DNA of 64,000 bases from Eledone cirrhosa (lineage: Eukaryota): assembly GCA_964016885.1 (NCBI GenBank), contig OZ024758.1, positions 5,642,001 through 5,706,000 of the forward strand. The letters run 5' to 3'. This document shows, piece by piece, positions 39,401 to 42,400 of the stretch. The position numbers were made by a program, and so were the translations under genes. Positions within the stretch are counted from its first letter, which is position 1; every line of letters starts with the position of its first letter. Below the pieces are notes generated by a model. The model was given only the letters and a program-made list of their open reading frames with translations, made no database searches and had not been told where the DNA came from.

Positions 39401-42400
39401 AATAATAATAATAATATTGGTTTCTTATATAGGCACAAGGCCAGCAATTTTGGGGGAGGGGAATGTTGATTAAATCGACCCCAGTGCGTTACTGGTGCTT
39501 TATTTTATCGACCCCGTAAGGATAAAAGGTAAAGCTAACCTCGGCGGGATTTGAACTCAGACCGTAAAGGACCGTAACTCTATGCTGCAAAGCATTGTGT
39601 GCGGCTCTCTACCGATACTGCCAATCCACAAGAAGAAGAAGAAGAAGAAAGAAAGAAGAAGAAAGAAGAAAGAAGAAAGAAGAAAGAAGAAAGAAGAAAG
39701 AAGAAAAAAGAAAGAATAAGGAAAAAGAAAGAAAGAAAGAAAGAAAGAAAGAAAGAAAGAAGAACTAAATGAATAGTTATAGATCTATGTATAGTTACTC
39801 CTTCAGAGTTTCCATTAACGTCAAACACGAGAAGGTAACAATCGTTAACCCGCTACACACGAACAGAATATATTGCAAGTGAGCAGACGTTATCTCCAGA
39901 TTCATTACTATAACTTCCTTTTAAGAAACACCTGGCAAAGGTGTTTCAAAGAGAATTTTATTCTTTATCTATTTAAGTTTGGGGCGAGGTATATGCAGAT
40001 GGAATAACACTGATATAGCTTTGAATTACAACTATTATAGTTCACAGTTTTAGAATTGCCATAAATTTCTGGCTATCAAAGAGTTAAGAAACCGACACGT
40101 ATACAGATTAACTGTAACATATATATATATATATATATATATATATATATATATATATATAATATATATATATATATATATATATATATATATATATTAA
40201 AATAAAGTTTAAGCAAAGAATATATATATATATATATATATATATATATATATATATATATAAAATAAAACAAGGACGAGTGGTTACTCCTTCATTACGT
40301 TTATTGGTTGATGACGCGTGTTTCGCCATCGATCAGCTCAAGGTTCGATCTGTATCGATCTAGCCCGACTCTTTAATTCTTTTTGTTTTATTTTATTATT
40401 TTATTATACTACACTCTGTCTAGCTCTACACCTTAGATACAGACGTGAACCTAAACGTCGAGTGCTCAGTCGGGTGAACCTATAGTAGTTCCCAGGTTAT
40501 ATATATATATATATATATATATATATATATATGTGTGTGTGTGTAAACAGAAATAACAACACAATCGGTACAATATATGGAAGGAGTATATTAGGTTAAC
40601 GCTTAATATAGCAGGAAGAGGGTCTTAACGTTTGGGACACTAGTCCTTCATCAGAAGAAAGAATGAGAAATTAGATAGATTGAAGGGACGGGCGGGGTGG
40701 AATTGGAAAAAATGTTTTTAGAGAAAAATAACAGGTCCATTCATGTTGCCCCCCACACACACACACAGATATAGTAATAATAATAAATGTGAAGACTAAA
40801 ATCCAAAGAGGGCTATTCCATCTTCCCCGGGGGGTCCGGGTAACTATTTCAATCATATCTCATTTTGTTTGACCCGTTTAGCTTGTTCGCTTTTTTGGCT
40901 ATGGTGGTTAATGGGTTCTTAACCATCGTCTTAGCGTGTATGACCATTTTAACTTATGTTTATAGCTCTGGTATCTTCTTCATATCCATGGAGCGCTTGT
41001 CTGCACAATATGGAAGTTGCGTTTCGCTAATTTCTACCTGCCGAAATGCGATTCTCGCTAAATTTATATTTATATATATATATATATATATATATATATA
41101 TATAACGAAGGAAATGAGGTAAGGAACCAGATGGACCATAACGCACCAAAGTACTCAATACTTAGGGTAGTAGAGTGGGTAATAGGAACGAGTAGGACCC
41201 CGTACTATTCAGAGGTTAATATATATAAGATTCTGAGCTCAGCCGTCGGGGTCCTACTCGTTCCTATATATATATATATATATATATATATATATATATA
41301 TATATATGAAAAAGTAAGTCCTTCATCAGTGACCCTCCAACCGTCCCAGGCATTTCATCGCTTTAAGGGCCATATACCTCAGGTTGGTGCGAACAACGGC
41401 TAAAAAAAGTCGTTGGGACACGTAAATAAAGGGGACGTTAGGGTGAACAAACAAAATGGTTTAAGCAACGGAAAGTGAGAAGAAAGAGACAAGTCCCAGA
41501 TTTCTATGAATATAAACTTGGTGAAATCGTGAACAAGAGACAAAAGACCATCAAACCTGGTTGAAATGTGAGCAAGGAAGGAATTTCGCACAGGTCTAAC
41601 GGGGGGAAGAAGAAGGGGTCTGGTCTGCGAATTCGGTAAACATAAGTTCTGTGAAGTCGCAGACGAGAGAGAGAGAGAGAGAAAATATATATATATAATC
41701 TATTTGACTTTGTTGTGCATTTCTATAGGACCAGCTCTTTCAAATGCGATTATAATTAAAGAATGGAAAGACTATAGTCTTGAGAATAGGTGGTGTTATA
41801 TCCGCTATTGTAATAGGAGATGGTAACACTGTGGCTGATTCTTCTATATCGGCTGCTCCAACAGAGTTCATAGTTAGTTGTCTGTATGTACTATTCAGAG
41901 GTTAATATATATAACATTCTGGTATCTCCATTGCTTGTGTGAGGTTAGTTTGAGGTTAAGCAGAGGCGTTCACCTGATGTACATGCTGAAAAATGATGCA
42001 GAATTCGTTTGGTATGCCAGCTCTAGAGTGATGGCTGTCTGAGCTGCACATGCATAATATTAGGTATATATATATATATATTTATTTATTTATAGTCTCG
42101 TCAGAGCAAGGTACGGCATGGCTAGACTTGTCTCTCAACGCGGACAACTCGTCTGACCCATGCAAGCATGGAAAATGGACGTTAGACGGTGATGATGATA
42201 TATATATATATATATATATATATATAGGAACGAGTAGGACCCCAACGGCTGAGCTCAAGCCGTTTCGACGGCTTGAGCTCAGCCGTCGGGGTCCTACTCG
42301 TTCCTATTACCCACTCTACTACCCTAAGTATTGAGTACTTTGGTGCGTTATGGTCCATCTGGTTCCTTACCACATTTCCTTCGTTATATATATATATATA

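What the first reader, a model, noticed from the sequence alone, without database searches (positions are those of the whole stretch)
42224..42386. Unclassified (TA)n-embedded element with a 40-bp terminal hairpin whose arms co-vary between copies
Seen: a ~165-bp element made of an 84-nt hairpin (40-bp stem, TTCG loop) and an ~80-bp unique arm ending ccttcgtta. Six copies (10938, 37677, 41103, 42224, 54741, 63513), in or adjoining (TA)n. Copy 63513 differs from 42224 at three stem positions, each changed in both arms (gaacGag/gaacCag, gtaGga/gtaAga, acGgct/acAgct). It has no TIRs, Pol III boxes or poly-A. Inference: one arm is re-templated from the other during mobilisation (fold-back, rolling-hairpin or Helentron-like), or the stem is under selection. 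It may be an undescribed microsatellite-targeting family.
Basis: partly seen in the sequence, partly recalled or inferred. Interest (0 to 1): 0.75.

Follow-up and report, generated by a model that had tools for sequence, protein, structure and literature searches.

The report
Head-to-head Penelope retroelement end stubs
This hairpin repeat is the extreme end of a known kind of jumping gene (a Penelope-like retrotransposon), inserted as two short copies joined head to head in TA repeats; its arms match because both carry the same parent variant, and the stubs likely mark where copying ran off the start of the element's RNA.

Summary
The element is real but not unclassified. The hairpin arm and the 77-bp 'unique arm' are the last ~120 bases of a 3.5-kb Penelope-like retroelement (pLTR tip plus tail). 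Long copies carry a 716-aa telomerase-like reverse transcriptase with Hydra-clade motifs and a hammerhead fold. The inverted 5' copy, one-sided tail and (TA)n target are published features of these elements. The genome holds at least 21,089 ends. The 40-bp/TTCG form is rare: 182 copies against 180 with the loop reversed, in several subfamilies. Arm 'covariation' is inherited subfamily sequence present in both arms (89 of 90, about 30 expected); private changes are mostly one-sided. Of added interest: 169 of 189 arms stop within 18 bases of one point and none in the next 21, with a roughly threefold excess of an extra G. Most stubs are therefore probably two cDNAs that ran off the RNA's 5' end and were joined. 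This is inferred; no RNA data were available. The scan has noted such stubs, and a run-off reading, on other DNA before.

The parts
42198..42226 (.). (TA)n target, left flank
42224..42273 (-). Inverted, tail-less copy of the last 50 nt of the pLTR (matches L115 5158 to 5109); it supplies the TTCG 'loop' at 42264-42267
   Evidence: BLAST against the natural long copy L115, 92% over 50 nt
42268..42273 (.). 6-nt microhomology shared by both halves, the head-to-head junction; it lies in the small palindrome of the hammerhead's stem II/GAAA/stem III region
   Evidence: overlap of the two alignments
42268..42307 (+). Direct copy of the last 40 nt of the pLTR. It holds the 3' remnant of a type I hammerhead (stem III, predicted cut site after 42287, 3' strand of stem I); the 5' half of the ribozyme is missing
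42308..42384 (+). [quoted passage not shown]
42385..42430 (.). (TA)n target, right flank
63513..63672 (+). Stub of the subfamily that includes the intact-ORF copies (98% to L115)
41103..41267 (-). Stub whose centre is replaced by a ~30-nt copy of window 41890-41920
54741..54868 (-). Older stub: tail plus inverted arm, direct arm mostly lost
37676..37731 (-). Inverted pLTR tip without direct copy or tail
10938..11032 (+). Tail with ~18 nt of the inverted arm; hairpin lost

Best explanation
The element is the 3' end (pLTR tip plus tail) of a Penelope-like retrotransposon with Hydra-clade motifs, lying in (TA)n with an inverted, tail-less copy of the same end in front of it, and it was likely made by the element's enzyme as two cDNAs joined head to head. 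Shown: identity with the ends of 3.5-kb ORF-bearing copies, the one-sided tail, the (TA)n flanks, copy-specific junctions and the sharp stop point. Inferred: the element's endonuclease nicks both strands in (TA)n; one cDNA starts at the tail end and one at the pLTR end, 77-80 nt apart; when priming uses the pLTR/tail copy near the 5' end of the mRNA, both cDNAs run off the RNA's start about 60 nt further on; end joining with trimming, microhomology or short insertions then links them. The 40-bp/TTCG form is the rare case where the join uses the small palindrome in the arm. Arms 'covary' because both copy the same subfamily template. The stubs are probably dead ends, not a self-propagating family. 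Confidence in Penelope identity about 0.97, Hydra clade about 0.9, run-off origin of the stubs about 0.55.
For: Long copies end in the same sequence and carry an open frame, 716 aa from the ATG. The model has pLDDT 93.8 and its top fold match is telomerase RT 3du5, E 1.2e-8. Motifs RWR, DKT, YRDD, CxCX5C, YIG, CxxC, CxH match the Hydra description. Hammerhead three-way junction is the minimum-energy fold of L115:5046-5150, with the published U3-A8 core. 142 of 143 short head-to-head insertions have exactly one tail. Loop orientation 180 vs 182. Among 12 long insertions that could be read, the tail-bearing half is longer in 7, shorter in 4 and about equal in 1; fold-back of the tail-primed cDNA cannot give a longer tail-less half. 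30,992 arms reach AGTCC, only 5,703 continue ~35 nt further. 169 of 189 arms stop 0-18 nt before the core motif, 48 of them at 11-12, none at 19-39. L255 holds 257-bp units that start at the same point and run through tail and leader into the ORF start, as an mRNA 5' end would. Non-templated G at the stop point: 1,123 against 392 for C there and 393 for G one base further in. Internal initiation at two sites that define the tail was shown in vitro for another PLE (PMC11167929).
Against: No RNA 5' ends were seen, so the start site and cap are inferred. The G excess is only about threefold, its controls differ in the neighbouring base, and in the local sample the base next to the peak stop was G 12, C 9, A 4, T 1 of 26. 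Stops spread over 5-18 nt rather than one base. The templated insertion in 41103 shows that repair acts on these centres. The GIY-YIG domain rests on motifs only: Pfam gave 0 families and the 49 fold matches listed were polymerases. No tree against Hydra references was built. The unit is 3.5 kb where Hydra elements are 'generally <3 kb', and RWK reads RWR. The hammerhead fold is not more stable than shuffles (z -0.38).
Confidence: 0.9

Rival explanations
1. Same Penelope identity, but the stubs are what is left after long palindromic insertions collapsed in the genome (cruciform cleavage and end joining) until only the GC-rich end remained.
For: Long near-perfect palindromes exist (L110, L111). 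Junctions show 1-2-nt microhomologies and insertions. 41103 has a locally templated insertion. The 1:1 loop orientation also fits symmetric deletion.
Against: No arms stop at 19-39 nt although 20 go beyond. Copies without an inverted arm stop at the same point (L076, L155). The direct-repeat units of L255 start there too. Collapse does not predict an extra G.
Confidence: 0.2
2. Same identity, but the reverse transcriptase stalls at the long stem II of the hammerhead in a full-length RNA, and the stalled cDNAs are joined.
For: The stop point lies in the 3' strand of a predicted extension of stem II. Stops are spread over about 13 nt.
Against: The enzyme passes the more GC-rich stems I, III and II before it stops. 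A stall does not explain the extra G or the L255 units that reach from this point into the ORF start.
Confidence: 0.2
3. Same identity, but the inverted arm comes from self-priming (fold-back) of one strand, as proposed for rotifer Penelope elements (PMC3846280), so one arm is copied from the other.
For: Arms agree in subfamily in 89 of 90 and 93 of 100 typed insertions. Seven two-sided changes are seen once only in the sample.
Against: Both loop orientations are equally common. Either half can be the longer one. Most centres are not hairpin loops. A few insertions have arms of different variants (L141, L152, L130). Private changes are mostly one-sided.
Confidence: 0.12
4. An independent non-autonomous DNA element (MITE, Helentron-like or rolling-hairpin) with a selected stem.
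For: High copy number, asymmetric inverted ends, TA flanks; the 1:1 loop orientation looks like parvovirus flip/flop (recalled).
Against: Every part is the end of an RT-encoding element. Centres differ from copy to copy. The two loop forms together are 362 copies beside at least 21,089 ends and occur in several subfamilies.
Confidence: 0.02

Closest known systems
Hydra clade of C-terminal EN+ Penelope-like elements, e.g. Hydra-1_Obim (Craig et al. 2021, PMC8557442; passages, section 11 and supplement rows seen)
   Same: Single ORF with RT then endonuclease motifs; DKT; CxCX5C linker; CxxC and CxH near the end; (TA)n insertion; hammerhead near the 3' end; inverted 5'-truncated copy and one-sided tail. 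By eye the RT is alike to Hydra-1_Obim along the stretches printed.
   Different: A different family: five motifs of this element (two DNA, three protein, one of them mistyped and uninformative) found no true match in the supplement. Unit 3.5 kb with a 1.2-kb 3' region; RWR for RWK; tail 77-80 nt against the 30-40 nt given for PLEs; U3-A8 core with long stem II; most copies are ~200-bp stubs.
Poseidon_Ac internal initiation of reverse transcription (Frangieh et al. 2024, PMC11167929; parts 1-2 of 4 read)
   Same: Two insertion ends that bracket the tail at the pLTR-ORF junction; AT-rich target; copies span the hammerhead cut site, as expected if uncut RNA is the template.
   Different: Other clade; there the ORF starts inside the hammerhead, here about 90 nt after the tail. 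The parts read do not describe run-off stubs or how the inverted copy is joined.
Inverted pLTRs of Adineta vaga Penelope elements (Arkhipova et al. 2013, PMC3846280; passages)
   Same: Head-to-head inverted pLTR, optional tail, palindromes at the inverted junction, initiator-like motif inside the pLTR.
   Different: That paper favours self-priming on an antisense template; the counts here fit two separately primed cDNAs better.
Minimal hammerheads of metazoan PLEs (Cervera and de la Pena 2014, PMC4209133; passages)
   Same: Type I motif, short stem I, long stem II, unpaired base before stem II, palindromic loop III, U3-A8 variant; motifs found close together on opposite strands.
   Different: The window stubs keep only the 3' half of the motif and cannot form the ribozyme on their own.

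Membership tests
EN+ Penelope-like elements | Single ORF with telomerase-like reverse transcriptase | tested here: met
   716-aa frame in L112, L115, L123; top fold match TERT
EN+ Penelope-like elements | GIY-YIG endonuclease in the same ORF | tested here: inconclusive
   YIG motif and flanking cysteine motifs at the C-terminus; no Pfam, PDB-sequence or listed fold match to a GIY-YIG domain
EN+ Penelope-like elements | Partial tandems forming pLTRs | tested here: met
   L112, L115, L123, L137
EN+ Penelope-like elements | Inverted 5'-truncated copy and a tail at one end only | tested here: met
   142 of 143 short insertions; long copies
EN+ Penelope-like elements | Hammerhead motif in the pLTR | tested here: met
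   Three-way junction with U3-A8 core in L115; L160 did not fold this way at minimum energy; cleavage not tested
Hydra clade | C-terminal endonuclease, DKT motif, CxCX5C linker, CxxC and CxH motifs | tested here: met
   Positions 184, 639, 737, 765 of the 784-codon frame against the description
Hydra clade | RWK motif | tested here: inconclusive
   Reads RWR at the same place
Hydra clade | CCHH motif absent | tested here: met
   Read by eye from the protein printed: one cysteine after YIG, no second cysteine inside the GIY-YIG core
Hydra clade | Insertion into (TA)n | tested here: met
   105 of 109 tails and 73 of 80 tail-less arms end in (TA)n
Hydra clade | Placement inside the clade on an RT tree | not tested
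   Reference proteins were seen only as cut text in the supplement
Naiad/Chlamys | N-terminal endonuclease, no hammerhead | tested here: not met
   Endonuclease motifs are C-terminal and a hammerhead motif is present
Helentron, MITE or rolling-hairpin element | Fixed internal sequence across copies and a DNA-acting partner enzyme | tested here: not met
   Copy-specific centres; the partner found is an RT. HUH or transposase partners were not searched for separately

The most novel reading that the evidence does not exclude
Most insertions of this family are a 'strong-stop'-like by-product: two cDNAs primed at the two ends of the tail near the 5' end of the capped mRNA run off its start and are joined head to head. 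Tens of thousands of stubs would then map the element's transcription start (inside the hammerhead, which leaves the 5' ribozyme copy unable to cut) and show that inverted pLTRs come from twin priming rather than self-priming.
Probability: 0.55. Interest if true: 0.5.

Novelty: new member of a known kind. Interest (0 to 1): 0.28.

Why it matters
As a family it is ordinary: one more Hydra-type Penelope element, whose stubs can be mistaken for a MITE or an unknown repeat. The added value is mechanistic. How Penelope elements form inverted ends is still called open in the papers read (PMC8557442, PMC11167929). This family offers counts that bear on it: equal loop orientations, either half longer, one sharp stop point and an extra G. 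They give a precise prediction for the RNA start and an intact protein to test in vitro. Searches listed no paper whose title or opening abstract describes run-off stubs of PLEs; the library lacks most subscription papers and Repbase/Dfam could not be queried, so this does not show absence from print.

Tried and rejected
Parvovirus-like flip/flop: first read, dropped after searches showed that the CGAA form belongs to a longer arm; the true short forms are 180 and 182 copies. Rfam: 29 matches at E up to 10, none at its gathering score; no hammerhead family was hit in the stub region. Pfam found nothing for the protein and only sub-threshold noise for 6 of 120 listed homologues; PDB by sequence found nothing useful. 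Single-sequence fold failed, pLDDT 32. RNA: no RNA holder listed. Contigs of four runs of unrecorded kind were laid: they show loose (TA)n ends at both the pLTR end and the tail end and far more contigs on the last 130 bp than on the ORF, but the tool says this depth is no copy number and the best holder may be the assembly's own sample, so it is not used as support. The arm-concordance part had an off-by-one error and is discarded; replace it. L172 looked chimeric there but is two neighbouring insertions. No remnant of the ORF lies in the window (tblastn). Empty orthologous sites could not be checked: no relatives of this genome are held. Sample caveats: most loci came hits on contig C1, which require at least 45 nt of arm; arms needed an exact core motif; arm extent was scored by exact match to 15 natural long copies, so point mutations shorten it (L250 is one such case). 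In one search, 52 of 142 insertions were left out of the concordance count because an arm was not of a common type, and its strict motif missed the two-tailed L152, 50 of 150 were left out and 11 gapped pairs were dropped before. Of 17 long loci, 5 could not be read for half lengths.

Full report
Observation. The element at 42224-42386 is as described: an 84-nt hairpin (z -19) and a ~79-bp arm between (TA)n runs. BLAST finds all six named places in the window, but only 42224 has the whole hairpin; the others are shortened, interrupted or partial. The window lies at G000:C19:5642001-5706000 of a 3.0-Gb genome, and the 40 best genomic matches were 96-100% identical; the 30 fetched lie in or beside (TA)n. 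That the host is an octopus-like animal is an impression from recalled SINE look-alikes and from earlier notes; it was not tested.

The hairpin form is a minority. A pattern with the loop reversed relative to the unique arm gave 21,089 exact matches (control 0), the TTCG pattern 466. Reading the loci showed why: the usual copy has longer arms and a centre that differs between copies. The true 40-bp-stem forms number 180 with one loop orientation and 182 with the other, and the listed matches of both span several subfamilies. The form in the window thus arises repeatedly, by a join through a small palindrome inside the arm.

What the element is. Some copies continue upstream for kilobases. A search with that upstream DNA gave pairs of hits on opposite strands a few kb apart. 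Sixteen such regions were fetched; three (L112, L115, L123) hold a full open frame behind a pLTR and tail, 716 aa from the ATG, with a 1.2-kb 3' region and a unit of about 3.5 kb. The window copies align to the last 40-60 nt of this unit and to the 77 nt that follow it in tandem copies. The protein has 2,235 homologues at E up to 1e-10 among 7,998 candidates scored, nearly all unnamed. Folded with 117 of them it reaches pLDDT 93.8, and its best structural match is telomerase reverse transcriptase. Its motifs (RWR, DKT, CxCX5C, CxxC, CxH) follow the description of the Hydra clade, which also names (TA)n insertion and hammerheads (PMC8557442 section 11). The same paper describes the inverted 5'-truncated copy and the tail at one end. 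Its supplement lists Hydra-1_Obim, a related but different family. The last 110 nt of the pLTR fold into a type I hammerhead junction with the U3-A8 core described in PMC4209133.

Covariation. Both arms carry the same subfamily block in 93 of 100 typed pairs (27.9 expected if independent) and in 89 of 90 with a stricter motif (29.9 expected). Departures from the nearest common haplotype are one-sided 136 times and two-sided 25 times, 18 of the latter being recurring minor variants. The three sites of 63513 are those of the L115 subfamily. So the paired changes were present in the source element and were written twice at insertion. There is no sign of selection on the stem. A few insertions have unlike arms (L141, L152, L130).

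How the stubs likely form. Shown: 142 of 143 short head-to-head insertions have one tail; tails and tail-less arms both end in (TA)n (105 of 109, 73 of 80); either half of a long insertion can be the longer (7, 4 and 1 equal of 12 read); 169 of 189 arms stop within 18 nt upstream of the core motif, peak at 11-12, none at 19-39; genome-wide 30,992 arms reach the peak point and 5,703 go 35 nt further (the longer pattern loses some copies to mutation); L255 has 257-bp direct units that begin at this point and end just inside the ORF; a non-templated G before the point is about three times as common as two controls (1,123, 392, 393). Known: a PLE protein nicks both strands of AT-rich DNA and starts reverse transcription internally at two sites that bracket the tail (PMC11167929). 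Inferred: the stop point is the 5' end of the element's capped RNA (the sequence there resembles an initiator, recalled); priming at the 5'-proximal pLTR/tail gives two short run-off cDNAs on opposite strands, which end joining links head to head; priming at the 3' copy gives the long insertions. Because that RNA would start inside the hammerhead, its 5' copy could not cut itself, which fits stubs that span the cut site. Rivals for this step are later collapse of long palindromes, a stall at RNA structure, and self-priming (PMC3846280); none is excluded without RNA data.

Earlier notes of the scan, consulted after this reading was reached: none matched this sequence; several on this genome and others file similar fold-backs as Hydra-type Penelope stubs, and one on another genome gives a run-off reading. 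Their claim of twin bulged hairpins behind the two insertion ends was checked in part: both places fold into a 4+4-bp stem with a 2-nt bulge (z -1.35 and -2.23), which agrees but is weak alone.

Papers seen: PMC8557442 (passages, section 11, supplement rows and cut sequences), PMC11167929 (parts 1-2 of 4), PMC3846280, PMC4209133, PMC13282606 and 10.64898/2026.07.22.740005 (passages only; the preprint's supplements were not seen). Verdict: a new member of a known kind.

Noticed in passing
L255:2900-3700 (G000:C1:27006500-27013000): Three direct 257-bp-spaced units of pLTR tip, tail and 5' leader up to the first ORF codons, behind one inverted arm; looks like repeated template jumps on the RNA's 5' end, and like the seed of a minisatellite.
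   Followed up: partly
window 41202-41233 and 41890-41920: The centre of the 41103 copy is a ~30-nt near-exact copy of DNA about 690 bp away, a templated insertion of the kind made in break repair.
   Followed up: partly
L152:2580-2860: An insertion with a tail at both ends whose two halves are different subfamily variants, suggesting two RNA molecules in one event.
   Followed up: partly
L038:1720-2240: An older related family with 150-bp arms whose centre holds a stretch like the ORF start.
   Followed up: no
L110 and L111: Near-perfect palindromes of 5-6 kb made of two truncated copies survive in the assembly at over 99% identity to the young subfamily.
   Followed up: no
L115:5158-5192 and 5238-5272; window 42308-42342: A 4+4-bp hairpin with a 2-nt bulge lies just behind each of the two insertion ends, as earlier notes reported for other families.
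   Followed up: partly
window 54895-55040: Further diverged pieces of the same or a related pLTR end beside the 54741 copy.
   Followed up: no
window 50622-51655, 664-1014, 43279-43662, 58697-59147: Minisatellite arrays with units of 29, 25, 48 and 143 bp.
   Followed up: no
L120:3400-4323 and L124:4006-4674: Open-frame pieces of other Hydra-like families near copies of this one.
   Followed up: no
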